A stretch of 64,000 nt of DNA from a virus (taxonomy: Duplodnaviria; Caudoviricetes): the IMG/VR virus record IMGVR_UViG_3300025437_000009. One strand, given 5' to 3'. Positions 5,274 through 20,592 of the stretch are shown here, piece by piece. Position 1 is the stretch's first letter, and every line of letters begins with the position of its first letter. The translations under genes and the position numbers were made by a program. Under the pieces are notes generated by a model. That model was not told the DNA's origin. It saw only the letters and a list, made by a program, of their open reading frames with translations, and did not search any database.

Positions 5274-7198
<1,925 letters not shown>

Positions 7199-7291: not shown

Positions 7292-8059
7292 TTAGAAATA
7301 AGTAATATTGGTTCTGGGAAAGAAACATTCTCTGTACTGCATGGGTTTCATTTTGTGTAGTTCAACTACCGAAGTTTTGCCCAAGCCCATAGCTATACTA
7401 AGAGCCATACTTTGGTTGCCCAAAAACAAATCAGCGCCTTCAATTAATTCGGCTAGTTCTAAGAAATCTTTAACCGGACGATATTGTATTTTACAGTCAA
7501 ATTTAGCAACAAAAGCTTCATGCTCTGCAGGCGTCCCAACAAATAGTCCATTATTAGCCAAATCTGCGTCATGACACATTTTGAACCAACTAGCATCTGT
7601 GTCAACATCAGGAGTACGATAACGTGGAGTAGAGTTTACAACGATAGCGGCTTCTTTAATAGGGTCTACTTCTAACCAAGGTGTATCATAATCGTTGACT
7701 GTAAATGGTACATTAAAAGTACGGAAATAACTTTCTACAATATTTCCCTCAAATGTACGATACAGTACTGCACGATATTGATCCAAATTGATATCGGGCT
7801 TGTTGTCCCCGTCATGCCAAGCTGTAACCTCTGTGATATATGGTTGACGTTCAATTAGGGGTGCTAACATTCTGTAGTCTTGTTCTGTGTATCGACCTTT
7901 GTGTGCTGGGTCAATATCTTCAGCACGATACCCATAGGTAGGCAGGATAAGTTCAAGGTTACGAATACCAATTTGAAACTCACCGCCGCCCATGCGTTTA
8001 ACCAGGGCCAGGCTATAGATTGTGTCACCGGCTGTGCCTGAATGCAAGTATGTTGTCAT
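7292..8059 (-). CDS. GT9/heptosyltransferase-like GT-B protein
   Basis: HSGTAGD N-terminal motif; LFLGNQSMALSIAMGLG. Confidence 0.6.
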   Translation of the reverse strand: MTTYLHSGTAGDTIYSLALVKRMGGGEFQIGIRNLELILPTYGYRAEDIDPAHKGRYTEQDYRMLAPLIERQPYITEVTAWHDGDNKPDINLDQYRAVLYRTFEGNIVESYFRTFNVPFTVNDYDTPWLEVDPIKEAAIVVNSTPRYRTPDVDTDASWFKMCHDADLANNGLFVGTPAEHEAFVAKFDCKIQYRPVKDFLELAELIEGADLFLGNQSMALSIAMGLGKTSVVELHKMKPMQYRECFFPRTNITYF

Positions 8060-8781
8060 TTATTATTTTTTATTAAAAAGATTCCGTAACCATTATGCCA
8101 AGGACTAGGGAACATAGGATTCTCACCTGTTTCAACTTCAATTTTGTAAAGTATTTCTAAGTTACTGTCATCAAATGCACGATAAGTACCTGCTTTTTCG
8201 CGACTGTTATATTTGACACCCTTGTACTCAACTTCAAAAATATTGTTGTCATTCCAGTCATCAACTATAACTAAACTGATGTCAGCAAGGTGTGGAGCCA
8301 CACGAACAATACCTTGATATTGGCTTTCTTCTTCATGCCAACCATCGTACATATAAACATCGTATGGTCCATATAGTGCAGGATCAAAACTTTCAAAACT
8401 TTGATTCAATAACTGTACGTCGGCGGTTTCTGTTTTTACTACTTCGATGTTACGACGAGCATCTTGTTCAGGAGTTGTACTGTAGTGTGGATAGCTTTCA
8501 GTGTAGTTGTCTACTCCAATGGCTGTGATATTATCAATGCCGCCAATAGCTGAACAAAGAGTTGATCCTTGAAATACTCCTACCTCAAGATATCGGGCAT
8601 CGGTCAGTGTTCTAATATAGTTATTGATAAATCTACGATAAACAATACCACTCATTCCAGTAATCTGTAGTGCATAGTCCGGAATTCCGCTGACTTCTTC
8701 TTGTGCCAGTCGCAAGCACTCTTTGATAATTCCAATCTGTGGGTGATCAGTATATACTTGATCAGTAATAGTAATAGGCAT
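8056..8781 (-). CDS. class I SAM-dependent methyltransferase
   Basis: YLEVGVFQGST, YMYDGWH, VIVDDW. Confidence 0.8.
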   Translation of the reverse strand: MPITITDQVYTDHPQIGIIKECLRLAQEEVSGIPDYALQITGMSGIVYRRFINNYIRTLTDARYLEVGVFQGSTLCSAIGGIDNITAIGVDNYTESYPHYSTTPEQDARRNIEVVKTETADVQLLNQSFESFDPALYGPYDVYMYDGWHEEESQYQGIVRVAPHLADISLVIVDDWNDNNIFEVEYKGVKYNSREKAGTYRAFDDSNLEILYKIEVETGENPMFPSPWHNGYGIFLIKNNK

Positions 8782-8792
8782 AATTTTCTTTC

Positions 8793-9686
8793 TTAATTAA
8801 GTTGTTCTAATATTGCGTTGGCTATACGTTGTGTATCAAACAGTTTGTTACAGCGGAAATCTCCATGTTGGCATACGATTCCACGCACTGGTCGATCTTG
8901 TTTGACGTTGCAACCCACACAGTCAATATCGGCTTGTATAGCAGTCCAGTGCCATGTTGGATCCAAATGTCTAATAGGCATTATATACTCTGGAGGATTA
9001 TGTGTCAACATTCCAATTACGTGTGTATTGCTGGCTCCAGCAATTTGAAATGGTCCCGAATCGATGCCCACAAAACAACGGGCACCATCCAATAATACTT
9101 TTAATTGTTGTGGCGTGTACTGTGCGTTTTTATTCACAATCAAGGGATGATCCAGGCTCAAATCAGTGGGTCCGCCTACTGTAACAATTTTGAAATCTGT
9201 GCGTACTTCAAACGCTTGAGCAAAGATATTGCACCATACGTCAATATCAATATTCTTCAGGGCCCAATGCCACTGACGCATATGAACAGCAATGTAGGGA
9301 CTACCAATTTCCTTGATGTCTGCACTAACTAATTCCAGATCACTGTCAGTTGGATGTAGGTCGGGGTGGCGATCCATGACACTGGTATTATCACCAAACA
9401 CTCGATAAAACATACTGTCAATAAAATGATTTTCTGGATTTAATTCGTAAGCGTCATCTAAGTTATAAACGACATCATAGTCTGCGGGATTACATTCGCC
9501 CCAGTTACGTAGATCTACAATGTAAGGATTGTTTTTATAGACTAATGGAAATTCTGTTTCAACGGTAATTGCACAACGGCCATTGTGATGTTTGTACAGT
9601 TCTCGGACTACACCGGTTGACATTACTACATCGCCCAATGCAGCACGTCGTTTAACTAAGATAGTGGTAGGAGTTTCAATCTTCAT
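8793..9686 (-). CDS. glycosyltransferase family 9
   Basis: RRAALGDVV and FVGIDSGPFQIA motifs. Confidence 0.85.
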   Translation of the reverse strand: MKIETPTTILVKRRAALGDVVMSTGVVRELYKHHNGRCAITVETEFPLVYKNNPYIVDLRNWGECNPADYDVVYNLDDAYELNPENHFIDSMFYRVFGDNTSVMDRHPDLHPTDSDLELVSADIKEIGSPYIAVHMRQWHWALKNIDIDVWCNIFAQAFEVRTDFKIVTVGGPTDLSLDHPLIVNKNAQYTPQQLKVLLDGARCFVGIDSGPFQIAGASNTHVIGMLTHNPPEYIMPIRHLDPTWHWTAIQADIDCVGCNVKQDRPVRGIVCQHGDFRCNKLFDTQRIANAILEQLN

Positions 9687-10911
9687 TGGTTTCTGTCACA
9701 ATAGTTGGAAAATAACGCAGGAATATATCTTGTGCGTTGTTGCGTTTTGCTAGAATCTTCTTTTTAATTTCTGTGTAGAAATTCCATGCCAGCGGAACAA
9801 ATACAACACGTTCTTTGGGATCAGTTATACTATCTAACCATTCGATACTGACCACAGGAATACTAGTGCCCGGGCAATATAGTCCTTGCTTTAAAGGATT
9901 GTCATCAATTACGCAGTCCAGGTGTATGTTACTGGCATTGATCAGTGTCATACCTTTAGCGGCAGCACCGTAACCAACAATAGTATATCCCCAACCACGA
10001 TACTCATCAATTTGATCTTTGAGTTGATCAATTAACTCCTGTACACCTGTAGCCCACTTTGTATAAGTCTCAGGTGTCTGTAGTCCTAGTGCTGATTCTA
10101 CAGCTAGGATATTTTGAATACGTTCTTGATTAGCAGGTTGTTTGGCTAATATAAAGATATAGCTGGTTCCATGAATAGGAGTTTTAATTACATCAATTAA
10201 ATATAGACCAGCACGTTCAGCCAGTCGGCGCATTGATTCTGCATTGTAGTAGCTGATATGCTCGTGATAGATGGTATCAAACTCACCGTTAGGAACCATG
10301 TCAGCTTGACTGGTAGAAATAAAAATCTTACCTTCGTTGTTTAAGTGCTCGCGGCAAAGTTTTAAGTATGCCAGTGGATCTGGAATATGTGCAAATGAAT
10401 TTTGTGTAGTAATAACTGTAAACTTGGTATGTATGTTATCAGAGGTTTCTTTATCCCAAAATCTACACCATATGCGATGATTCGCACTAGACTTTTCGTA
10501 TAAGTTTTCTGCTGGATCTACACCAAATGTCTTATAACCTAACTTCTTAAATGCATCTAATTGGCTACCATCATTACAGCCAATGTCCAATACTGTACCC
10601 ACCATTGGTTTAGCGAACTGTTCAGTTACAAAGCGAGCATACCAGTCCATGTATTCTACATAGGTATTTGATGTACCTGACACATACAGATAGTGTGTGT
10701 AAATCAATTCAGGATTAACTGCGTGTGTAAGTTGTAGGTGATTACAGTCTTCACAACGATTAATAGCTAGGGGGAACCACTGATCTGTATCACGTACTCC
10801 GCCATGCTCTTGAAAGCTGTTGGCCAAGGGTTGATCTTGGAGATCCAGGGTCAAGGTTAAGTCTTGGCCGCCGCAGGCCAAACACTCATCGATTTGTGTG
10901 TAATCTTCCAT
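9676..10911 (-). CDS. NDP-sugar C-methyltransferase
   Basis: Zn motifs CLACG and CEDC, VLDIGCNDG, FDTIYHEH, GYGAAAKG. Confidence 0.88.
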   Translation of the reverse strand: MEDYTQIDECLACGGQDLTLTLDLQDQPLANSFQEHGGVRDTDQWFPLAINRCEDCNHLQLTHAVNPELIYTHYLYVSGTSNTYVEYMDWYARFVTEQFAKPMVGTVLDIGCNDGSQLDAFKKLGYKTFGVDPAENLYEKSSANHRIWCRFWDKETSDNIHTKFTVITTQNSFAHIPDPLAYLKLCREHLNNEGKIFISTSQADMVPNGEFDTIYHEHISYYNAESMRRLAERAGLYLIDVIKTPIHGTSYIFILAKQPANQERIQNILAVESALGLQTPETYTKWATGVQELIDQLKDQIDEYRGWGYTIVGYGAAAKGMTLINASNIHLDCVIDDNPLKQGLYCPGTSIPVVSIEWLDSITDPKERVVFVPLAWNFYTEIKKKILAKRNNAQDIFLRYFPTIVTETNED

Positions 10912-11636
10912 TAATTTTTAATAGCAGTTCCGTTGGGAGCGATTGCCCCTTCAACACCAAGATTTTGAATTTCATGTACATGGTCGGGATTTAAGAACTT
11001 AGCAAGTACGTGTTCAATATCCACATATCCACCTGCAGCTAAACGTTCGGCAAAGAACAGGAAGCTATCTTCATATACACCAATAACTTCGTCTAAGAGT
11101 GCAATAGGCCAAGACCATAAGCGAGCCATGTACTGGAATGGTACTTGTGTTACTTCTGGAGGGAATTGACTTTGATGTTTTGGTCCAATAATAATTTTAT
11201 CTAAATTATCTGTTTGATCGTATGTAGCAGGATCAAACAAATCATTTAATATATAACGTCCAGACATTTTATGAATACGATTAATTCCAACAAAGGCATT
11301 TTCTTGTTTGAGAATACGCAACACACGACCAAAACACATGATTTCTGTGCCGTTCTTTACTACGTCCCAATTATCATTGTCGTACATGTCAATAACGTCT
11401 TGATCTTGGCTACAGTCAATGAACACGTCGCAGTTTTGTCTTATTACTGCTTCTTGATGTGGCTTAATCGAATCCCCACAGCATTCCATTACTATAATTC
11501 TAGCATCAGGGATTTTACGCTTAATGCTATTGATAGTTTCAATAGTTTGATCTAACCGTTGCTTAGGTGCAAACACACCAAACTTACTGTTAATAGCTGA
11601 AGTTACGATAAAACAATGTTTTACTTGCTGAGCCAT
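10911..11636 (-). CDS. hypothetical protein, possibly glycosyltransferase-like
   Basis: ORF inside the glycan island with FIVTSAI and KMSGRY motifs. Start moved to MAQQVK. Confidence 0.6.
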   Translation of the reverse strand: MAQQVKHCFIVTSAINSKFGVFAPKQRLDQTIETINSIKRKIPDARIIVMECCGDSIKPHQEAVIRQNCDVFIDCSQDQDVIDMYDNDNWDVVKNGTEIMCFGRVLRILKQENAFVGINRIHKMSGRYILNDLFDPATYDQTDNLDKIIIGPKHQSQFPPEVTQVPFQYMARLWSWPIALLDEVIGVYEDSFLFFAERLAAGGYVDIEHVLAKFLNPDHVHEIQNLGVEGAIAPNGTAIKN

Positions 11637-12655
11637 CTGTTGTTCTCCAATGTCCATAATGTCATTTCTTTAATGCGTTCGCTTAGTTTAATCTTAGGTT
11701 CCCACCCCAATGACTTTAACAATCCGCCATCTAAGGCATAGCGTAAGTCATGTCCAGGACGTGATCCGTGGAAGTCAACCATTTCGTAATTAAGTTCTTT
11801 ACCTTGTGCTTCAGCAATCATCTTAGCTAAACTCAAATTATCAATTTCTTCTGTACCTACCAAGTTAAACTTAGGACAGTGAGCCCAACCGTAGTCACCT
11901 GTGTGTTTGTAGTCTTTTAAGTTAAGAATAAACATTAGGCCTTCGGCTACGTCTTTAGCATGGATATACATACGTGTGCCAGCTTCTGTGCAGTCTGCGT
12001 TGGCATGGATATAAATCTTTTCACCATCTCTAGCACGTTGAATACACATGGGAATAAATTTCTCTGGATGCTGACGCTCACCAAACACGTTCATAGTATG
12101 TGTAACAACAATTGGCATTTTGTAAGTATTTTCATAAGCTACGCAAAACTCTTCTGCTGCCGCTTTTGATGCTGAGTATGGATTTGTTGAATTGTAACGA
12201 TCGTATTCTTTGTAGCTAACTCCTGGAGGAGCAACACCAAAGATCTCGTCTGTTGAGAAATACACAAAGCGTTCTAAGTTAGGCAAGTTCTTACGTGCAT
12301 AGTCTAACATATTAACTGTGCCAACTACGTTATCCTGCACAAACTCAAACGGATATTGAATTGAACGATCTACGTGTGATCCTGCGGCCAAATGTAGAAC
12401 AATATCAACAGGACCAATGTCCTTGACAATCATTTCATTCAGTTCTGCTTTTAAATCATGGAATACAATACGCAAACGTTCAGCTACCATTTTAGGATCG
12501 TGATCCTGTAGCATATCGTGTAAGCGATTCAAGTTACCACTAATATCTAATCGGTCCAGACATACAATATTGTAGTCGGTTTCTTTGAGCATCTTATCGA
12601 TTACATGGTGTGCGATGAAACCAGCACCGCCTGTTATCAGTACATTTTTTGACAT
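11621..12655 (-). CDS. rmlB: dTDP-glucose 4,6-dehydratase (RmlB-like)
   Basis: GGAGFIA, HLAAGSHVDRSI, STDEIFG, YSASK, RPGHDLRYA. Confidence 0.88.
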   Translation of the reverse strand: MSKNVLITGGAGFIAHHVIDKMLKETDYNIVCLDRLDISGNLNRLHDMLQDHDPKMVAERLRIVFHDLKAELNEMIVKDIGPVDIVLHLAAGSHVDRSIQYPFEFVQDNVVGTVNMLDYARKNLPNLERFVYFSTDEIFGVAPPGVSYKEYDRYNSTNPYSASKAAAEEFCVAYENTYKMPIVVTHTMNVFGERQHPEKFIPMCIQRARDGEKIYIHANADCTEAGTRMYIHAKDVAEGLMFILNLKDYKHTGDYGWAHCPKFNLVGTEEIDNLSLAKMIAEAQGKELNYEMVDFHGSRPGHDLRYALDGGLLKSLGWEPKIKLSERIKEMTLWTLENNRWLSK

Positions 12656-12731
12656 TTATTATTCACCTAAGTTATTTGATAGCAGTATTTACCTGCGTAT
12701 TTTGTTGTTAATTATAAAACAATATCAACTA

Positions 12732-13187
12732 TTAGTCAATGATTGATTTAATTTTTTCTACATAGTCGCTACATATTCCGTAGCAGGAAGCCGATTTAAT
12801 ATTGGCAAATTCTGGATCCGACCATTCTGGCATCAACATAATGCTACGTTTGGATAAAGGTTTATCGGGATAAGTCCAAATGTATTGATGACTAGTCAGA
12901 GTCTGTGTGTCAGACTCGTGCCAAAAGTAGTTTAAAGGTGTGTTGGTTAGATAGTATAGTGCCGCTAGATTTTTGGCATGTATCCATAGACCGTCGCTAG
13001 AAATAAATTCGTATTCTACATTATAAGTAGGAGCATCATGCCCTAAAAAGAATCCGCCATCCGATTTATACCAAAGATCAATTTCGCAGTCATATCCCTT
13101 GGATAATGCTAATTTAATTTGCTCAGGGCGATTTTCTAAATTACTATCAGGACCATTAAACAATCCGCGATGTGCTATCAATTTCAT
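12732..13187 (-). CDS. glycerophosphodiester phosphodiesterase-like protein
   Basis: MKLIAHRGL...EN...EIDLW...LGHD. Confidence 0.7.
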   Translation of the reverse strand: MKLIAHRGLFNGPDSNLENRPEQIKLALSKGYDCEIDLWYKSDGGFFLGHDAPTYNVEYEFISSDGLWIHAKNLAALYYLTNTPLNYFWHESDTQTLTSHQYIWTYPDKPLSKRSIMLMPEWSDPEFANIKSASCYGICSDYVEKIKSIID

Positions 13188-13867
13188 TGGTGATCCATTC
13201 TCCAACGACCCCGGTATTCACCTTTATTCCATTGTGGCTCTACTATAAATGGCAAGCACTCATAGTCTATGCCCGTAACTTTAAAATACTTTTCCAGGCT
13301 TTCTTCTGGATGTATAAACTCAAATGTATCTGCTAAGTGATCTAGGTAATCCCAGTAACCCACAAAACGTTCATACATTTCTGGACTACCAAATAAAAAA
13401 TTATCAGCAAAGTTTTGAGCATTGATCATTTTAGTTTTAACTTTTTCAGCATAGTCACGTAGGTCAACTTCACCACGTGGTACCATGTCTGTACGCATAC
13501 GGAACACCATATCGTACTGTTCACCTGTTTCAGCCACATACTCTTTAAATAAGCGATGACTTTCCACAATTCCCCACCACATGGTAAGAAAGTTAGGTGC
13601 CCAGTGTGCTATCTGTAGAGGCCTACGTGGAGGATGTGCATACTGTGGTCCATCCTCTAGGACCTGCACTACTTTAAATTGACAAGTGTCTGGAATACCC
13701 TCACTACGCAAATAGTTTACAAACTGATCAGCATTTAGGCCAAATTCACTACGCCATGTGCGTATAAAAAAGTCCGCTTGGTCAAATCCTTTGAGAGCGT
13801 CAACCAGTCTAAATAGTCCACGATGTTCGAATCTTGGACCACCGCTTAAACAAAATGCTATCTTCAT
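13184..13867 (-). CDS. hypothetical protein, glycosyltransferase-like
   Basis: MKIAFCLSGGPR, YDMVFRMRTD. Confidence 0.6.
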   Translation of the reverse strand: MKIAFCLSGGPRFEHRGLFRLVDALKGFDQADFFIRTWRSEFGLNADQFVNYLRSEGIPDTCQFKVVQVLEDGPQYAHPPRRPLQIAHWAPNFLTMWWGIVESHRLFKEYVAETGEQYDMVFRMRTDMVPRGEVDLRDYAEKVKTKMINAQNFADNFLFGSPEMYERFVGYWDYLDHLADTFEFIHPEESLEKYFKVTGIDYECLPFIVEPQWNKGEYRGRWRMDHQ

Positions 13868-14424
13868 AAATTCTTTCCCCAACCTAGACCGTTTCTCATA
13901 AAATTATTACCAAACATTTCATTTACTGCACGCACAACTCCTTCAGATCCACGAGTGTGACCATAATCGTCCCCAGCAATAGTACCGCCAGGTTTAACTT
14001 TAGGTAACCATGCTTTAATGTCAGCTAGTACACCTTCATACAAATGATCGCCATCAATGAATACAAAATCCAAACTAGCATCAGGGTATGTTGCGGCCGC
14101 ACTAACACTATCCATACGTACAGCACGATAATATCCCTCTACAGGTTTCATATTAGTAATGAATTCATCATATAGTGTATCATTAACTACACTGGTATCA
14201 GTTTGATGCAATTCTTCGTTTGGGGTACCACGCCAAGTATCAACACAATCAAATTTAATGTCTTTACCACTGTTGATAATCTCAACTGCCATGAATGCGG
14301 CGCTTTGTCCCCGCCAGGATCCTATTTCAACAAAGTGGCTTCCTGTAGGGAAGTATTCAACCATACCCTTGTAGATATCAAAAAAACTGCACCAGCCTTG
14401 TATATTTTGATAAAAATGATTCAC
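13864..14424 (-). CDS. class I SAM-dependent methyltransferase
   Basis: FVEIGSWRGQS, FVFIDGDH, VKPGGTIAGDDY. Confidence 0.85.
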   Translation of the reverse strand: MNHFYQNIQGWCSFFDIYKGMVEYFPTGSHFVEIGSWRGQSAAFMAVEIINSGKDIKFDCVDTWRGTPNEELHQTDTSVVNDTLYDEFITNMKPVEGYYRAVRMDSVSAAATYPDASLDFVFIDGDHLYEGVLADIKAWLPKVKPGGTIAGDDYGHTRGSEGVVRAVNEMFGNNFMRNGLGWGKNL

Positions 14425-15617
14425 TATTTAATCAAACCCCATTTAGCAATAGCTTGATCGTACTCAGGACCGTATGTCTTATCTATTGCTTGACGCATAG
14501 CTGTGGCTCCCGCTACTGTACCGCCTGGATGTCCGTGTACTGCTCCGCCTGCGTTGGCTAGATAATCTTGGCCAGCAATTTCTGTAACTTTTTCTACCAG
14601 GCCGGGATGGAATCCACAGCTTAGAGCAGGAACAGTATTACCTGCACGTAGAATATCTAGACATTCTTTAATCTCTTCTGGGTCATCATTGCTATATCCG
14701 CCAACCATGCCTGTTTGTATAGTGTCGGCGCCCATCAGAGTAGCTAGCTGACACATAACTGGCCAACTGATACTAAAGCGATGATTAACATCTGTGGTAA
14801 CTTTGGCACCAGAACTTTGATAGTGCAAGTACAATGGCAAATCTAATTTGCGAATACTGTTATAACTACCATAGCCAGAGAATACATTGATATGCACACC
14901 TGTTCCGCCTAACTCATGCACACGCTTAACACGATCGACTAACACATGCGGGTCGCAGTTAATAGTATGGCAAAATACGATCTTACGTGATTGTTTTGCT
15001 AGATAGTTAGCAATAATATCTACACGACGATCCAATGGCGCACACGCAGGATTAACCATGATTTCATCTTCTTTGATAAAATCGACCCCACCGTCAACCA
15101 TCTGTTTGACCATCTCTAATAATACTTCAGGAGTAATACCAATCTTAGGTTTTACAATACTACCAAACAAAGGTTTTCCGTATTGGCCGGTTAATGCTCT
15201 AAATCCTGTGATACCAAACTTGGGTCCTAAGAAATGCTGTGTAACTGTTTCAGGAAGTTCTAATTTAATTAATCGGCAACTGTTAAAACAATCGATATCA
15301 ACGTGTCCGCCCATGAGCTGGCATAACATATGAGCGACCCCGTCTGTTGCCCAGTCTGTGTTAGCCACAGGGAAAGCAATTTCTACGTTGCCCCATACAC
15401 GATTTTCAAGGTCTTTTTTATCACCTAGGATGATACAACTGTGATTTTCAAATAGGTCATCTGTTTCCCACTCATTGCGTACACTGGGATTTCCTACGCT
15501 TTGCCCGATAGCTAAATTCCATGCGGCGTCATCTAAGCTAGTCTTACTAGTAATTTTATATGTTGCTATGTAATACTTAGATAAATCTATTTCACTGCGG
15601 TCACGGTAAAACTTCAT
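14424..15617 (-). CDS. RuBisCO-like protein (form IV, RLP)
   Basis: GSIVKPKIG, DFIKEDE, LSCGFHPG, AGGAVHGHPGG..AGATAMRQA. Start moved to ATG 15617 (GGAG RBS). Confidence 0.9.
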   Translation of the reverse strand: MKFYRDRSEIDLSKYYIATYKITSKTSLDDAAWNLAIGQSVGNPSVRNEWETDDLFENHSCIILGDKKDLENRVWGNVEIAFPVANTDWATDGVAHMLCQLMGGHVDIDCFNSCRLIKLELPETVTQHFLGPKFGITGFRALTGQYGKPLFGSIVKPKIGITPEVLLEMVKQMVDGGVDFIKEDEIMVNPACAPLDRRVDIIANYLAKQSRKIVFCHTINCDPHVLVDRVKRVHELGGTGVHINVFSGYGSYNSIRKLDLPLYLHYQSSGAKVTTDVNHRFSISWPVMCQLATLMGADTIQTGMVGGYSNDDPEEIKECLDILRAGNTVPALSCGFHPGLVEKVTEIAGQDYLANAGGAVHGHPGGTVAGATAMRQAIDKTYGPEYDQAIAKWGLIK

Positions 15618-15927
15618 ACTTGTCTCCAATAATACTTGGTCGTTTAACGACACAAACTCTACAATCCTCTAAGAACTCTGGGTCAGCAACGTCACCAGGT
15701 TCAAACCAAAATATATCGCCGGCTTCTACAATCTCCCCAGCAATACGCATACGTCCGTCTAATAATACATTGTATTCTGTAGCGTGTTTATGATAGTGTG
15801 CAGGCCACGCTTCGCCTTTACGATGTGTAAGTATGCCTACTTCAAATAAGGGAGTACGCATAACAGAGGGTTCAAAGTCGCCAATGAACCAACCACGTGT
15901 CATATCAGAAAGTTTTGCTGTTTTCAT
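15601..15927 (-). CDS. cupin-domain protein
   Basis: HYHKHATEYNVLLDG...GDIFWFEPG. Confidence 0.7.
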   Translation of the reverse strand: MKTAKLSDMTRGWFIGDFEPSVMRTPLFEVGILTHRKGEAWPAHYHKHATEYNVLLDGRMRIAGEIVEAGDIFWFEPGDVADPEFLEDCRVCVVKRPSIIGDKYEVLP

Positions 15928-16627
15928 ATCTTAAAAATTCATCTAAGTCATCAGGCACGCCTACGGGATGATGGAACTGATTGGGTATATGATAAATGCC
16001 CACAGTCCGTCCCTGTGCTATCATATGATTATAACTTGGTCCTATGTAAAACTCCCCATTAGGTGCTCGATCGTTTGCTGCAATCATTGCTTCTGCGGCC
16101 TCTACAAAGTAGCGACCTTTCTTCCAGTAATGAATGCCATTTAATGATATATTACTTATCACTTGCTTTTCGCGGATCTCCCGCACAAGGCCTTCTTTGT
16201 TTACACGAGCATAACTGTTTTTATCTGTATCTGCATGATAGGTAACTACAGCACCATCATAGTGACGGACATAATCTAAAAATCTATCGCTAGTCCATTC
16301 CATGATTTGATCACAGTTAGCAATAATTAGTTCTTCATCTGTGTTAATATCGTCTTTGAATAACAAGGCTGTGCTTGCAGGACCTTCTGTTACATAGTCA
16401 ATGGCCAAATAACGGCTGTTGGGCTTGAATGATTCAATCATAGCCAAGACGCCTTCAGTATGCTCGTCTTTGCGAACAATAAAGTGCCACTGTCCATCTA
16501 TATCCAAACTTTCTACAGCACGCTGGATCATTGGTCGACCGTTGATGTCAATAAGTGGTTTGGGAATTAAAATGCGTTTTTCAGCAAATCGGCTACCGCG
16601 ACCCGCCATTGGGATAATTATATTCAT
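15905..16627 (-). CDS. nucleotidyltransferase (NTP_transferase family)
   Basis: IIIPMAGRGSRF...PKPLIDING, IIANCDQ. Confidence 0.85.
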   Translation of the reverse strand: MNIIIPMAGRGSRFAEKRILIPKPLIDINGRPMIQRAVESLDIDGQWHFIVRKDEHTEGVLAMIESFKPNSRYLAIDYVTEGPASTALLFKDDINTDEELIIANCDQIMEWTSDRFLDYVRHYDGAVVTYHADTDKNSYARVNKEGLVREIREKQVISNISLNGIHYWKKGRYFVEAAEAMIAANDRAPNGEFYIGPSYNHMIAQGRTVGIYHIPNQFHHPVGVPDDLDEFLRYENSKTF

Positions 16628-17490
16628 TTATAAGGAAAAGGTGGTAATAAATTGTAAATGTTTTCTTCAGGATTGTCAAGTATATTCTTTTGATATCGGT
16701 CTAGATTAGCTAATAATGTACGTGGGAAGTAGTCGTTGATTTCTACAATTTTATATTCATTGCCAGAGTTACGATTCCACTCTTTGCGTTCTTGAATACT
16801 TTTATCAACGTCGATGTGGGCTAAAAATTCCGGAGTATTACTTTCAGTGTGTGCAAAACTCTGGGCCTTGTTCTTTAACCATTCGTTATCGCCCATATAA
16901 CCAAAATGCCAGCCTGCATGCTCTAGTACTTCACAGCCGTCATTTTTAAATTGATATGGAGCCGACATAAACTGAAATCTCAATTGACGAAATGGATCGG
17001 GCTGTATAGTGTCAAATAAACTCCGACGTCCGGCCATTCCCCAAACTTGATATGGGTCTGGTGCTGTACGCACATAATTAAATTTAAAATTGTGCAGAGT
17101 CATACGTAGAGCAAACAGAGCTTGATTGCTGTCGCGCATATATTCCACTGCTTCTTGACGTACAATCTCATCTAGGTCGCAGACCATAATCAGGTCATCG
17201 GGTGCAGCATCCGCTATACCGCGAGCAATTTGGTTACGTTGAAATATGTCATTAACCCAAGCATCTGGATCCCTTGGCATGTCGGTGACTTTGACGTGAA
17301 TAATCTTATCAGCCCATTGTGCATAGCGAGCTTTATTTTCTTCGTAATAAAAAGGTTTTGGTTGACTAGTATATGTAGTGTCCGCTTCTACGAGCACAAA
17401 GTGGTCGACAAAGTCCGATAATTCTGTTAATCTTAGTTCAAGTAGGTCAAGTTCGTTGTAGAATGTAAAACAGTCGTAGATTTTGTTCAT
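16624..17490 (-). CDS. glycosyltransferase family 17-like
   Basis: DCFTFYNELDLLELRL, VCDLDEI, AGWHFGY. Confidence 0.8.
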   Translation of the reverse strand: MNKIYDCFTFYNELDLLELRLTELSDFVDHFVLVEADTTYTSQPKPFYYEENKARYAQWADKIIHVKVTDMPRDPDAWVNDIFQRNQIARGIADAAPDDLIMVCDLDEIVRQEAVEYMRDSNQALFALRMTLHNFKFNYVRTAPDPYQVWGMAGRRSLFDTIQPDPFRQLRFQFMSAPYQFKNDGCEVLEHAGWHFGYMGDNEWLKNKAQSFAHTESNTPEFLAHIDVDKSIQERKEWNRNSGNEYKIVEINDYFPRTLLANLDRYQKNILDNPEENIYNLLPPFPYK

Positions 17491-17540
17491 AGCTGTATTT
17501 AAGCATATAAATACCTTACTGTCAAATTTTTAAAAAATCA

Positions 17541-18467
17541 ATGAAAAAAATTCTAATAACTGGTGGTGCTGGCTTTTTGGGTAGCCACCTAAGTAGTTCA
17601 CTATTAACTCAGGGCAATCAAGTATACTGTTTAGATAACTTTTGTACTGGTCGCCGAAGCAACATAACTTCCTTACTAGACAATCCAAATTTTGAATTGA
17701 TCAGGCACGACGTTACCGAACCATTTGATTTTGATGTAGATGAAATTTATAACTTAGCCTGTCCTGCCAGTCCGCCACAGTATCAGTTCGATCCAGTTAA
17801 GACTATACGTACTAATATGTTAGGTGCCATCAACGTTTTAGATCTAGCACGTCGTACTGGAGCTCGGGTACTACAGGCCAGCACATCAGAAATATATGGC
17901 GACCCAGAAGTTCATCCGCAACCAGAATCATATTGGGGTCGAGTAAACCCAATTGGTATTCGTAGTTGCTATGACGAAGGCAAACGTGCCGCAGAAACAT
18001 TATTCTTTGACTACTGGCGTCAATATCATACTCGTATCAAAGTAGTACGCATATTCAATACCTATGGACCCAATATGGATCCATCAGACGGGCGGGTAGT
18101 CAGTAACTTTATTAATCAGGCTATACGCAATGAACCAATTACCATTTATGGTGATGGTAGCCAAACTCGTAGTTTTTGCTTTGTATCTGACTTAATTGAT
18201 GTTATAATCAAAGTCATGGCTAGTCCAGACACATTTACGGGTCCAGTTAATATTGGCAATCCTAGAGAATTTACTATGTCAGAGTTGGCTCAACTAGTAA
18301 TTAAAATTACTGGATCTACTAGTGAAATAGTTTACCGAGATTTGCCCAGTGATGACCCTAAACAGCGGCAACCAGATATTACCTTAGCCAAAACTTTGGG
18401 CTGGGCTCCAACTGTAAGTTTAGAGCAGGGCCTAGAAAAAACAATAGAATATTTTAAAGGAATTTAA
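17541..18467 (+). CDS. UDP-glucuronate decarboxylase (UDP-xylose synthase) family
   Basis: [58 protein letters not shown] at 17507-17514. Confidence 0.9.
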
Positions 18468-18468
18468 C

Positions 18469-19134
18469 ATGTACGCAGTTGCTAGCATGAGTACCGAAAA
18501 CATCAAAGAGTTTGCTGATATTACAGATGCATCAAAAAAAGAATACTGTGACAAGCATGGCTACCTATTTTTTCCTTGCAAAGAAGATACATTTACCTTA
18601 GTTACAGAACCATACACTCCATACATGAATTTTAATAAAATGTATGTGTGTTTAGATATTTTTCGAGATCATCCAGAAATTGAATGGCTCCTGTTCAGCG
18701 AATGCGATGCAATGATCACTAACAGTGATATTAAAATAGAAGACCGTATCGACAACGATTATCATTTTATTATTTCTAGCGATAGATTAAACATCAACGC
18801 TGGTAACTTCTTAATACGTAACAGCGAACAGGGTCGTGCTTATTTTGAAATGATCCTTAGTCACAAAGATGAACCCGAATACCGAGATCATCGCTGGACC
18901 GAACAATGGGTTATTATCAATACTATTGAAGAAAATTTGGATATTGTTAAAATTGTTCCACAGTGGCATATGAACAGTTATCAAACCGAACTGTACGACT
19001 ATTGCGATACCAGCAAGGACTTGTTTGGTAATCGTGGTACATGGGAAGATGGTGATTGGATTATACATTGGCCAGGTTTATACGATCACACTCGTATTCC
19101 TGCTGCTCGTAAAATGGCTGAACGTAGAGTATGA
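18469..19134 (+). CDS. glycosyltransferase, GT34-like
   Basis: WLLFSECDAMITN, NAGNFLIRNS, EQ, GDWIIHWPG. Confidence 0.7.
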   Translation: MYAVASMSTENIKEFADITDASKKEYCDKHGYLFFPCKEDTFTLVTEPYTPYMNFNKMYVCLDIFRDHPEIEWLLFSECDAMITNSDIKIEDRIDNDYHFIISSDRLNINAGNFLIRNSEQGRAYFEMILSHKDEPEYRDHRWTEQWVIINTIEENLDIVKIVPQWHMNSYQTELYDYCDTSKDLFGNRGTWEDGDWIIHWPGLYDHTRIPAARKMAERRV

Positions 19135-19934
19135 AACCTAGTATTTTAATCACCGGCGGTTATGGTTTTATGGGTTCGCACCTACGCGAATACTATAAGG
19201 AAAACTATACTGTGTATGCTCCTCGTCACAGTGAACTAGAACTAACAGATTTAGCCGCAGTAACTAAGTTCTTTGACGACTATAAGATTGATGTTGTTAT
19301 ACATACTGCACTAGCAGGACGTGACAATATCTATGGGGTGAACAATGTACAAGAACAGCAAAATATTGCTATGTTTATGAACATATGGCGCAACCGTCAT
19401 AAGTTTACTAAATTCATTAATGCAGGAACAGGCAACGAATTTGATACCACAACCAATATTGATCGAGCACCCGAAGAAATGCTGTTTGATCGAATGCCAG
19501 TAGCTAGTTATGCGTTTGCTAAAAATATTGTAGCCCGTACTTGTAAGACTACAGAAAACTTTTACAACTTAAGATTTTTTGGAGTGTTTCATCATAGTGA
19601 AAAACCTGTTAGGTTCTTTCGCAGAGCTTACAATGCTGTAAACCCAATACATATCTTCCACGATCACTATTTTGATTATGTGAACTTAGAAGATGTACCC
19701 GTTATCATTGATACAGTTATCAATAATAAAATGCCCTACGATGATATTAATGTAGCTTATGACTCTAAGTATAAGCAAAGTGAATTGGCCCGGAACTTCT
19801 TGGCCTTGCATGGGAAAGATACAGAAGTAATCGTAGATGCCCAGGGTGAAAACAATTTCACCGGGGACACTACACGACTACAAAGTTTGAATTTAAAACT
19901 AAAGGGATTAGAAGAAGGTTGGAAACTTTACTGA
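19131..19934 (+). CDS. NAD-dependent epimerase/reductase (SDR extended)
   Basis: ILITGGYGFMG, YAFAK (YxxxK). Confidence 0.8.
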   Translation: MKPSILITGGYGFMGSHLREYYKENYTVYAPRHSELELTDLAAVTKFFDDYKIDVVIHTALAGRDNIYGVNNVQEQQNIAMFMNIWRNRHKFTKFINAGTGNEFDTTTNIDRAPEEMLFDRMPVASYAFAKNIVARTCKTTENFYNLRFFGVFHHSEKPVRFFRRAYNAVNPIHIFHDHYFDYVNLEDVPVIIDTVINNKMPYDDINVAYDSKYKQSELARNFLALHGKDTEVIVDAQGENNFTGDTTRLQSLNLKLKGLEEGWKLY

Positions 19935-20157: not shown

Positions 20158-20592
20158 TCAATCAAGTTTGATGACTTCGACTCCGGATCGGGTAAGGAAA
20201 TCCACTCCCTCACTGCTCCGATAGCTATTTCGATAGATAACACTACCAATGCCAGACTGGTATACCAATTTGGCGCAATCAAGGCAAGGACTATGGGTAA
20301 TAAACATAGTGGCACCGAGACCCGAATCACTGCTTTTCGCCAGCTTTGCAATGGCGTTAGTTTCTGCGTGGAGCACTTCTGGTTTTGTTTTGAGTTCATG
20401 ATGTCCGTCTTCTCTCAGTTCTACTATTTCTTCACAATCGTTTTCCCAACCTGCAGGCATACCATTGTATCCAATTGAGATAATGCGATCATCTTTGACA
20501 ATGATAGCACCCACATGCAGTCTACGTGCATGACTAAGTTCCGCAAATATTTCTGCGGTTTTCATGTATGCTTGAACTAGCTTTGGCTTCAC
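20158..20592 (-). CDS. dCMP deaminase
   Basis: SIGYNG, HAETNAI, SPCLDC. Confidence 0.92.
   Translation of the reverse strand: MKPKLVQAYMKTAEIFAELSHARRLHVGAIIVKDDRIISIGYNGMPAGWENDCEEIVELREDGHHELKTKPEVLHAETNAIAKLAKSSDSGLGATMFITHSPCLDCAKLVYQSGIGSVIYRNSYRSSEGVDFLTRSGVEVIKLD

What the first reader, a model, noticed from the sequence alone, without database searches (positions are those of the whole stretch)
14424..16627. Phage RuBisCO-like protein with a remodelled active site inside a sugar-biosynthesis operon
Seen, by manual alignment to form I numbering: K175/K177 (KPK) and K201-x-D203-E204 (KEDE) are kept. H294/R295 read Q/S (LHYQSSG), H327 reads Q, and loop-6 K334 reads Y (DTIQTGMVGGY). The gene is coupled to a cupin and a nucleotidyltransferase. 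Established: RLPs act on enolate intermediates in methionine salvage and in branched-sugar (apiose, hamamelose) catabolism. Inference: this RLP is biosynthetic, isomerising a sugar phosphate or forming a C-C bond for a branched NDP-sugar. It would not fix CO2.
Basis: partly seen in the sequence, partly recalled or inferred. Interest (0 to 1): 0.7.

Follow-up and report, generated by a model that had tools for sequence, protein, structure and literature searches.

The report
RuBisCO-like enzyme feeding nucleotide-sugar synthesis
A giant phage carries a RuBisCO relative that cannot fix CO2; across hundreds of phages and in SAR11, Legionella and tiny archaea it sits beside a sugar-activating enzyme in surface-glycan gene clusters, which points to a biosynthetic job not yet shown for this enzyme family.

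Summary
A 397-aa RuBisCO-like protein (RLP, 14424-15617, minus strand) overlaps an upstream 108-aa cupin gene, which in turn overlaps a nucleotidyltransferase (NTase) gene. The window comes from a giant myophage. An alignment to an annotated form I enzyme shows that K175, K177, K201, D203 and E204 are kept. H294 is Q, R295 is S, H327 is Q and K334 is Y.

Phage RLPs are already published (Jaffe et al. 2019), with function unknown. I found no paper that reports the following.

- The clade is monophyletic and lies apart from MtnW and OiaX. Q at 294 and Y at 334 are invariant across it.
- The NTase is adjacent in 76 of 80 viral loci and in about 44 of 50 cellular loci. The cellular loci include a complete Pelagibacter chromosome, Legionella isolates, DPANN and CPR.
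- A mini-GDPD (67 of 80 viral loci) and the cupin (56 of 80) usually accompany it.
- Fusions link RLP to NTase, a beta-phosphoglucomutase-like HAD domain to NTase, and NTase to GDPD.
- The neighbouring genes are glycan genes.

Best reading (about 0.6): the RLP isomerises a ketose phosphate by enolisation, and the product is nucleotide-activated for a surface glycan. The substrate is unknown. Nothing supports C-C bond formation or a branched sugar made by the RLP.

The parts
15905..16627 (-). Nucleotidyltransferase (240 aa), cassette type NTase-1
   Evidence: Pfam NTP_transf_3 at 32.8 bits. Best solved relative is 4evw. A family profile then hits Man-1-P guanylyltransferases, HddC, RmlA and GlmU. 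Adjacent to the RLP in 76 of 80 viral loci.
15601..15927 (-). Small metal-type cupin (108 aa)
   Evidence: Cupin_2 and Cupin_7 hits are below their cut-offs. H44, H46 and E51 are invariant. Present in 56 of 80 viral loci, mostly 310 nt upstream of the RLP start and overlapping it. It overlaps both the NTase gene and the RLP gene.
14424..15617 (-). RuBisCO-like protein (397 aa), the phage 'IV-like' clade
13864..14424 (-). TylF/Methyltransf_24-type O-methyltransferase (186 aa), start shares one base with the RLP stop
   Evidence: Pfam Methyltransf_24 at 76.8 bits and TylF at 31.7 bits. This exact family is found in only about 5 of 80 viral loci. Other methyltransferase families are common near the cassette.
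13184..13867 (-). DUF7796-family protein (227 aa), function unknown; candidate transferase
   Evidence: The family lies beside the cassette in 36 of 80 viral loci and 10 cellular loci. Eight of 19 members hit PF25072. No solved relative was found.
12732..13187 (-). Mini-GDPD (151 aa), a compact glycerophosphodiester-phosphodiesterase-like protein
   Evidence: The HRG, EN, ExD and GHD motifs are invariant. The family profile hits GDPD 7e0v at E=2e-4. The model has pLDDT 97.7, and its top Foldseek hits are almost all GDPDs. Present in 67 of 80 viral loci. Full-length archaeal counterparts pass the Pfam GDPD cut-off.
16651..16679 (-). Promoter-like site (TTGACA-17-TACAAT) just upstream of the NTase gene
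   Evidence: It is a consensus match only; the total number of sites in the region is not above the shuffled controls.
12711..12739 (-). Promoter-like site just after the mini-GDPD gene; it would bound the six-gene unit
   Evidence: Consensus match only.

Best explanation
The RLP belongs to a distinct, widespread RLP subfamily that works with a co-transcribed sugar-phosphate nucleotidyltransferase.

Proposed mechanism (inferred):
1. The RLP uses the retained RuBisCO enolisation machinery: the Mg2+ site on K201, D203 and E204, the base and proton shuttle K175 and K177, and the retained phosphate-binding glycines (G381, G403, G404). With these it enolises a phosphorylated ketose from central metabolism and reprotonates it, which amounts to epimerisation or a carbonyl shift. 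It adds no CO2 and cuts no bond.
2. The resulting rare sugar phosphate is tailored, where the genes are present, by the small metal cupin (a ketose-aldose isomerase or tautomerase, as PMI is for GDP-mannose).
3. A phospho-esterase or mutase step follows. It is done by the mini-GDPD, or in other loci by a beta-phosphoglucomutase-like HAD domain fused to the NTase.
4. The NTase converts the product to an NDP-sugar.
5. Glycosyltransferases, or the DUF7796 protein, place the sugar on a glycan: a cell-surface glycan in the cellular carriers, and the infected host's envelope or the virion in the phage.

Shown: the fold, the residue pattern, the distinct clade, the gene linkage, the fusions and the glycan context. 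Inferred: the chemistry, the order of steps, the substrate and the acceptor.
For: - Residues: the enolisation set is invariant in 130 of 130 clade members, and H294->Q and K334->Y are invariant.
- Clade: it is monophyletic (SH-like support 100) and separate from the MtnW and OiaX-like groups.
- Viral linkage: the NTase is adjacent in 76 of 80 loci, the mini-GDPD in 67 and the cupin in 56. The rest of the glycan island varies.
- Cellular linkage: the same linkage, with rearranged gene orders, occurs in a complete Pelagibacter chromosome, Legionella maceachernii, L. nautarum and L. drozanskii, Azospirillum, Nonomuraea, Woesearchaeota, Beckwithbacteria and Saccharibacteria.
- Fusions: RLP-NTase (P0126); HAD-NTase, whose HAD part is most like the beta-phosphoglucomutase family; NTase-GDPD.
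- Substitution: the viral loci with HAD-NTase show no mini-GDPD.
- NTase type: the family profile is closest to anomeric sugar-1-phosphate NTases.
- Neighbours: GT2, GT9, GT17, WavE, LicD, SDR dehydratases and methyltransferases.
- Control: a sister-group RLP has aldolase-like and isomerase-like neighbours and no NTase.
Against: - No biochemical data exist, and the substrate is not identified.
- The cupin is missing in about 30% of viral loci and about 70% of cellular loci. Legionellales loci have only RLP and NTase, so no fixed four-step pathway is required.
- The RLP-NTase fusion rests on a single 2.5-kb metagenome contig.
- Many of the viral loci are related phages, so their synteny is not 80 independent observations.
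- Some 'cellular' SAG and MAG contigs could be phage contamination.
- The LicD neighbour in Legionellales and the phosphodiesterase fold of the mini-GDPD fit a phosphodiester head-group better than a classical NDP-sugar.
Confidence: 0.6

Rival explanations
1. Phosphodiester head-group variant. The RLP product keeps its original, non-anomeric phosphate and is activated as CDP-X or NMP-X, as with CDP-ribitol, CDP-arabinitol, CDP-choline or CDP-glucitol. A LicD-type or DUF7796 transferase then transfers it as phospho-X onto a glycan. The GDPD-type proteins make, trim or recycle that phosphodiester.
For: A LicD family gene (151 bits) lies divergently next to RLP-NTase in all four Legionellales loci. 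These loci need only RLP and NTase. GDPD is a phosphodiester enzyme and is paired or fused with a second NTase subtype.
Against: The NTase profile ranks anomeric sugar-1-P NTases first. LicC, IspD and TarI types do not appear near the top. LicD is absent from the window and from every other locus searched. The HAD partner resembles beta-phosphoglucomutase.
Confidence: 0.2
2. SAM by-product salvage, in the manner of the known RLPs. The RLP plus the cupin would act on 5-methylthio- or 5-deoxy-ribulose-1-phosphate. Precedents are MtnW/MtnX/MtnD, and the R. rubrum RLP with its cupin methylsulfurylase that yields DXP. The purpose would be to recycle waste from the many methyltransferases and radical-SAM enzymes nearby.
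For: An RLP-cupin pairing and a phosphatase-type partner recall both known pathways (established knowledge). Methyltransferases are frequent neighbours, and radical-SAM genes occur in 13 viral loci.
Against: It is not in the MtnW clade, and NCBIfam MtnW models score 126-161 bits against cut-offs of 409-514. The solved DeepYkr-type RLP 2qyg scores lower (75.8 bits) than MtnW or form III. No mtnA, mtnB or mtnK genes are among the conserved neighbours. The cupin is dispensable, whereas the NTase is the near-universal partner, and salvage does not explain that.
Confidence: 0.08
3. A true RuBP carboxylase, acting as an auxiliary carbon-fixation gene.
For: Only the fold and the retained K175, K201, D203 and E204.
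Against: K334, H294, R295, H327, E60, T65, W66 and N123 are all replaced. Form I, II and III models score 89-168 bits against cut-offs of 438-497. No small-subunit or PRK gene was found in the annotated ORFs of the island (7292-19934).
Confidence: 0.01

Closest known systems
Phage 'form IV-like' RuBisCO-like proteins of Jaffe et al. 2019 (Mol Biol Evol 36:435, PMC6389311)
   Same: A divergent RLP on large myovirus-type phage contigs from many environments. It groups with Beckwithbacteria sequences; here the Beckwithbacteria MAG locus L093 is 47% identical. Key residues differ from canonical form IV.
   Different: That paper left the function open and treated the clade as essentially phage plus Beckwithbacteria. 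The analysis here adds the conserved NTase, cupin and mini-GDPD cassette, the fusions, the glycan context, and chromosomal copies in SAR11, Legionella, Azospirillum, Nonomuraea and DPANN.
MtnW / YkrW, 2,3-diketo-5-methylthiopentyl-1-phosphate enolase (PDB 2oej, 2zvi, 4nas)
   Same: Same fold, the same K175/K201/D203/E204 metal-enolisation core, and a monophosphate substrate. 4nas is the best solved sequence match (137 bits, 28% identity).
   Different: It is a separate clade and falls below the equivalog cut-offs. H294 is kept in MtnW but is Q here. The operon partners are mtn genes, not an NTase.
R. rubrum RLP (5-methylthio-D-ribulose-1-phosphate 1,3-isomerase) with its cupin 1-methylthio-xylulose-5-phosphate methylsulfurylase (Erb 2012 and Warlick 2012; recalled, not read here)
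   Same: An RLP isomerase followed by a small cupin. The chemistry proposed here, an enolisation-driven carbonyl shift, is of this type.
   Different: No reference sequence was available for a direct test. The related solved RLP 2qyg is a weak match. The product of that pathway, DXP, feeds isoprenoids and not an NTase.
OiaX / OiaC-type RLPs of D-apiose catabolism (Carter et al. 2018)
   Same: RLPs that act on branched sugar-acid phosphates. They are the only sugar-pathway RLPs with assigned functions.
   Different: They are catabolic, lie next to acid-sugar kinases, and keep H294 and R295. The NCBIfam OiaX model scores 148.5 bits against a cut-off of 700.
GDP-mannose and GDP-heptose logic: PMI cupin + phosphomutase, or GmhB HAD phosphatase + ManC/HddC NTase, including type II PMI-GMP fusions
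   Same: An NTase most similar to Man-1-P and heptose-1-P guanylyltransferases. A small cupin lies next to it, and a HAD or phosphoesterase partner is sometimes fused to it.
   Different: An RLP takes the place of the usual first isomerase. The phospho-esterase is usually a 150-aa mini-GDPD, which I know of in no nucleotide-sugar pathway.

Membership tests
RuBisCO large-subunit superfamily (PF00016) | Catalytic TIM-barrel domain plus N-domain; passes the Pfam gathering score | tested here: met
   127.8 bits against a cut-off of 30.1. The model has pLDDT 95.1 and TM 0.9 to 2d69, 3kdo and 8dht.
Bona fide RuBisCO (forms I-III) | Complete catalytic and RuBP-binding set: K175, K177, K201, D203, E204, H294, K334, R295, H327, S379, G381, G403/404, E60, T65, W66, N123 | tested here: not met
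   H294Q, K334Y, R295S, H327Q, E60G, T65N, W66P and N123G. NCBIfam form III, I and II models score 168, 161 and 89 bits against cut-offs of 497, 438 and 489.
MtnW (DK-MTP-1-P enolase) | Passes the equivalog models TIGR03332 and NF007095; falls in the YkrW clade | tested here: not met
   126 and 161 bits against cut-offs of 514 and 409. The MtnW-labelled group (P0230, 652 bits) lies elsewhere in the tree.
MtnW (DK-MTP-1-P enolase) | Methionine-salvage gene context (mtnA, mtnB, mtnK, mtnX, mtnD) | tested here: not met
   The conserved neighbours are NTase, mini-GDPD, cupin, DUF7796, methyltransferases and SDRs.
OiaX (3-oxo-isoapionate-4-phosphate decarboxylase) | Passes the equivalog model NF042437 | tested here: not met
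   148.5 bits against a cut-off of 700.
DeepYkr MTRu-1P 1,3-isomerase (R. rubrum type) | Clusters with the R. rubrum and R. palustris RLP2 sequences | tested here: inconclusive
   No labelled R. rubrum sequence could be brought in. The solved R. palustris RLP2 (2qyg) scores only 75.8 bits, below MtnW and form III.
Phage 'IV-like' RLP clade (Jaffe 2019) | On phage contigs with myovirus-type structural genes; groups with Beckwithbacteria RLPs, outside the canonical form IV groups | tested here: met
   Phage genes are in the window. 380 IMG/VR contigs carry relatives. The Beckwithbacteria MAG locus L093 is 47% identical and was recovered by the same clade-specific motifs. The clade is monophyletic. 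The paper's own sequences were not compared.
GDPD family (for the 151-aa partner) | HRG, EN and ExD motifs, a second catalytic His, and the GDPD barrel | tested here: met
   The motifs are invariant. The profile hits 7e0v at E=2e-4. The best Foldseek hits are almost all GDPDs, with probability up to 1.00 and TMq about 0.55. The protein is much shorter than canonical GDPDs and does not itself reach any Pfam hit.

The most novel reading that the evidence does not exclude
This RLP subfamily catalyses the committed step of a previously unknown nucleotide-sugar (or nucleotide-activated sugar-phosphate) pathway used for surface glycans by SAR11, Legionella, DPANN and CPR organisms and by giant phages. 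That would be the first anabolic, glycan-building role for the RuBisCO superfamily, with a mini-GDPD acting as a new kind of sugar-phosphate mutase or esterase.
Probability: 0.45. Interest if true: 0.8.

Novelty: new variant of a known kind. Interest (0 to 1): 0.68.

Why it matters
Every RLP with an assigned function so far is catabolic or works in salvage: methionine salvage, the MTA-isoprenoid shunt and apiose breakdown. A biosynthetic RLP that feeds an NDP-sugar would add a new reaction class to the evolutionary history of RuBisCO.

It would also assign a role to a gene found in at least 380 IMG/VR viral contigs and in the hypervariable glycan regions of SAR11, one of the most abundant bacteria. 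And it would define an unknown sugar on the surfaces that phages and grazers recognise.

The hypothesis is directly testable, because cultured carriers exist: Legionella maceachernii, L. nautarum, L. drozanskii, Azospirillum oleiclasticum and Nonomuraea rosea.

Tried and rejected
- Cultured phages: megablast of the island and tblastn of the RLP against 50,697 GenBank phage records gave no match. The clade is therefore known only from uncultivated phages.
- Whole genome: none is held for this window.
- CO2 fixation: rejected on the residue pattern and the model scores.
- Methionine-salvage or MTA-shunt analogue: considered because of the RLP + cupin + phosphatase pattern, then downgraded (see the rival explanations).
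- Cupin identity: the PDB profile search and the ESM Atlas give only generic metal cupins, such as quercetinase, small PMI-like proteins and KdgF. No function could be assigned.
- DUF7796 protein: Atlas, Pfam and PDB profile searches gave nothing beyond the DUF name.
- LicD: found only in the four Legionellales loci.
- GroEL co-occurrence with RLP phages: 3 of 5 large records, so there is no rule.
- 3D test of the His swap between positions 105 and 301: not possible, because model coordinates are not exposed to scripts.
- Tabita 2007, wanted for the IV-GOS clade, is not held. Whether this clade equals 'IV-GOS' stays open.
- Literature searches for RLP with NTase, cupin or cytidylyltransferase found no functional report.
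Full report
**What is there.**
The window is part of a giant myophage. It encodes a 1103-aa tail sheath, a tail tube, a large terminase and GroEL. It has no close relative among 50,697 deposited phage genomes.

The finding covers three overlapping minus-strand genes:
- a nucleotidyltransferase (NTase), 15905-16627;
- a 108-aa cupin, 15601-15927;
- a RuBisCO-like protein (RLP).

The RLP's true start is the ATG at 15617, behind a GGAGA. This gives 397 aa, the length of more than 100 homologues at 80% identity or more. The RLP start overlaps the cupin stop by 17 nt, and the cupin start overlaps the NTase stop by 23 nt.

Three more genes follow without gaps:
- a TylF-type O-methyltransferase, 13864-14424;
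- a DUF7796 protein, 13184-13867;
- a 151-aa GDPD-like protein, 12732-13187.

Promoter-like sites bracket this six-gene unit. They are consensus matches only. The unit lies inside a larger island of glycosyltransferases (GT17, GT9, GT34), SDR dehydratases and epimerases including an RmlB-like enzyme, and an NDP-hexose C-methyltransferase.

The RLP hits Pfam RuBisCO_large at 127.8 bits. Its AlphaFold model (pLDDT 95.1) superposes on form III RuBisCO at TM 0.9.

I aligned it to an annotated form I large subunit.
- Kept: K175, K177, K201, D203, E204, S379, G381 and G403/404.
- Changed: H294->Q, R295->S, H298->A, H327->Q, K334->Y, E60/T65/W66->G/N/P and N123->G.

So the metal and enolisation core survives. 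The residues that stabilise CO2 addition (K334) and that drive hydration and cleavage (H294) are gone. Those roles are from established RuBisCO mechanism.

All curated NCBIfam models fall far below their cut-offs: forms I, II and III, two MtnW models, and OiaX.

**What the family looks like.**
A search of 1.8 billion representative proteins gives a graded clade down to about 35% identity. In a tree of 108 representatives it is monophyletic (support 100). It is separate from the group I could label as MtnW and from the OiaX-like group. Its weakly supported sister is an unlabelled RLP group. The one sister example has aldolase-like and sugar-isomerase-like neighbours and no NTase.

Across 130 clade members the following are invariant:
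- the enolisation residues;
- Q294 and Y334;
- a GQSxGNP motif in the N-domain;
- an LSCG motif at the S379 site.

Four positions co-vary and define two subtypes. Q105/K295/D298/H327 occurs in 77 members. H105/S295/A298/Q327 occurs in 40, including the window. This looks like a histidine changing places within the active site. I could not check it in 3D.

**Gene neighbourhood.**
IMG/VR holds 380 viral contigs that encode a relative. I fetched the best 80 (54-86% identity). The counts of neighbours were:
- the NTase in 76;
- the mini-GDPD in 67;
- the cupin in 56, mostly 310 nt upstream of the RLP start and overlapping it;
- the DUF7796 family in 36;
- assorted methyltransferases in about 30;
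- SDRs in 25.

The glycosyltransferases and the RmlB/C-methyltransferase part of the window's island are not conserved.

The clade is not confined to phages. A scan of one genome per prokaryotic species found 51 loci. They include:
- a complete Candidatus Pelagibacter chromosome (56% identity) and many SAR11 single-cell genomes;
- Woesearchaeota and Nanoarchaeota;
- Beckwithbacteria and Saccharibacteria;
- cultured Legionella maceachernii, L. nautarum, L. drozanskii, Azospirillum oleiclasticum and Nonomuraea rosea.

RLP and NTase are adjacent in about 44 of 50 loci. The gene orders differ: NTase-cupin-RLP-GDPD, GDPD-NTase-RLP, RLP-cupin-NTase, GDPD-RLP-cupin-NTase, NTase-RLP-NTase, and plain RLP-NTase. 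Linkage that survives such reshuffling across phyla argues for a shared function.

The cellular neighbours are GT2, GT9, WavE, methyltransferases and SDRs. In all four Legionellales loci there is also a divergently oriented LicD gene.

**Fusions.**
- P0126 joins the RLP to the cassette-type NTase. It rests on a single contig.
- Three viral loci and the Pelagibacter chromosome carry a HAD-NTase fusion. Its HAD part is most like the beta-phosphoglucomutase family, although below the cut-off. Those viral loci show no mini-GDPD.
- A Micrarchaeota locus fuses an NTase to a GDPD.

**The partners.**
- The mini-GDPD keeps the HRG, EN, ExD and GHD motifs. It folds confidently (pLDDT 97.7), and almost all of its best structural matches are GDPDs.
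- The cupin has an invariant HxH...E metal motif but no informative relatives.
- The NTase family profile matches the uncharacterised 4evw, then mannose-1-P and heptose-1-P guanylyltransferases, RmlA and GlmU. It does not match LicC, IspD or TarI types near the top.

**Interpretation.**
The most economical reading has four parts.
1. The RLP makes an unusual sugar phosphate. It does so by enolisation and reprotonation of a common ketose phosphate, which is chemistry that RuBisCO itself performs as side reactions and that the R. rubrum RLP performs as its main reaction.
2. The cupin isomerises or tautomerises the product where needed.
3. The mini-GDPD or the beta-PGM-like HAD repositions or removes a phosphate.
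4. The NTase makes the nucleotide-activated sugar for the glycan machinery next door.

This parallels the PMI-PMM-GMP route to GDP-mannose and the GmhB-HddC steps to GDP-heptose, with an RLP in first place.

I put about 0.6 on this general scheme. I give about 0.2 to the variant in which the product is activated on its existing phosphate and transferred as a phosphodiester head-group. LicD and the GDPD fold favour that variant, and the NTase type argues against it. Salvage of SAM by-products and carbon fixation are unlikely.

The substrate, the nucleotide and the acceptor are unknown. Nothing points to C-C bond formation by the RLP. The island's own RmlB plus C-methyltransferase would account for a branched sugar.

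**Novelty.**
Jaffe et al. (2019) already reported about 80 divergent 'form IV-like' RLPs on phage contigs, including a phage of about 200 kb, grouping with Beckwithbacteria. They left the function open.

I found no paper that links RLPs to nucleotidyltransferases, cupins or glycan synthesis. The 2007 GOS paper noted new RuBisCO-homologue branches in ocean data. Whether one of them is this clade I could not test.

So the gene itself is known. The conserved cassette, the fusions, the wide cellular distribution, the catalytic signature and the resulting functional hypothesis appear to be new.

I re-derived each item independently.

Noticed in passing
window 5274-7198 (-): Phage-encoded GroEL (539 aa) and GroES (100 aa) directly abut the glycan island. 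RuBisCO-fold proteins are classic GroEL clients. GroEL is present in 3 of 5 large RLP-phage records, so the link is not obligatory.
   Followed up: partly
protein P0172 (representative library): A 583-aa protein fuses an N-terminal TIR_2 domain to a complete RuBisCO-large protein (N and C domains). It is about 30% identical to the window RLP. It may be a defence-type or NAD-product-processing RLP.
   Followed up: partly
proteins P0160 and P0188: IF-2B (ribose-1,5-bisphosphate isomerase-like) domains fused to form III-like RuBisCO. This is a single-polypeptide version of two steps of the AMP pathway.
   Followed up: no
window 9676-12655 (-): An RmlB-like dTDP-glucose 4,6-dehydratase (234 bits, under the cut-off) and a TylC3-type NDP-hexose C-methyltransferase. 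This is a separate, conventional route to a branched deoxysugar in the same island.
   Followed up: partly
L097-L106 (SAR11), L100-L130 (DPANN), L111:10013-11530: Cellular loci carry two NTase subtypes. One is next to the RLP. The other is paired with, or fused to, a GDPD. This suggests two linked activation steps.
   Followed up: partly
L124:6934-7773 and the equivalent genes in L123, L126, L128: A LicD-family phosphotransferase is divergently adjacent to RLP-NTase in all four Legionellales loci, and nowhere else in the 130 loci.
   Followed up: yes
window 20158-20592 (-): A dCMP/cytidine deaminase-family gene lies just beyond the glycan island.
   Followed up: no
window 13184-13867 (-) and 46 related loci: A DUF7796 family protein with conserved SG..R, R.R.D, D.F and PE motifs repeatedly flanks the cassette in phages, SAR11 and Woesearchaeota. 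It has no solved relative and is a candidate for the transferase that uses the product.
   Followed up: partly
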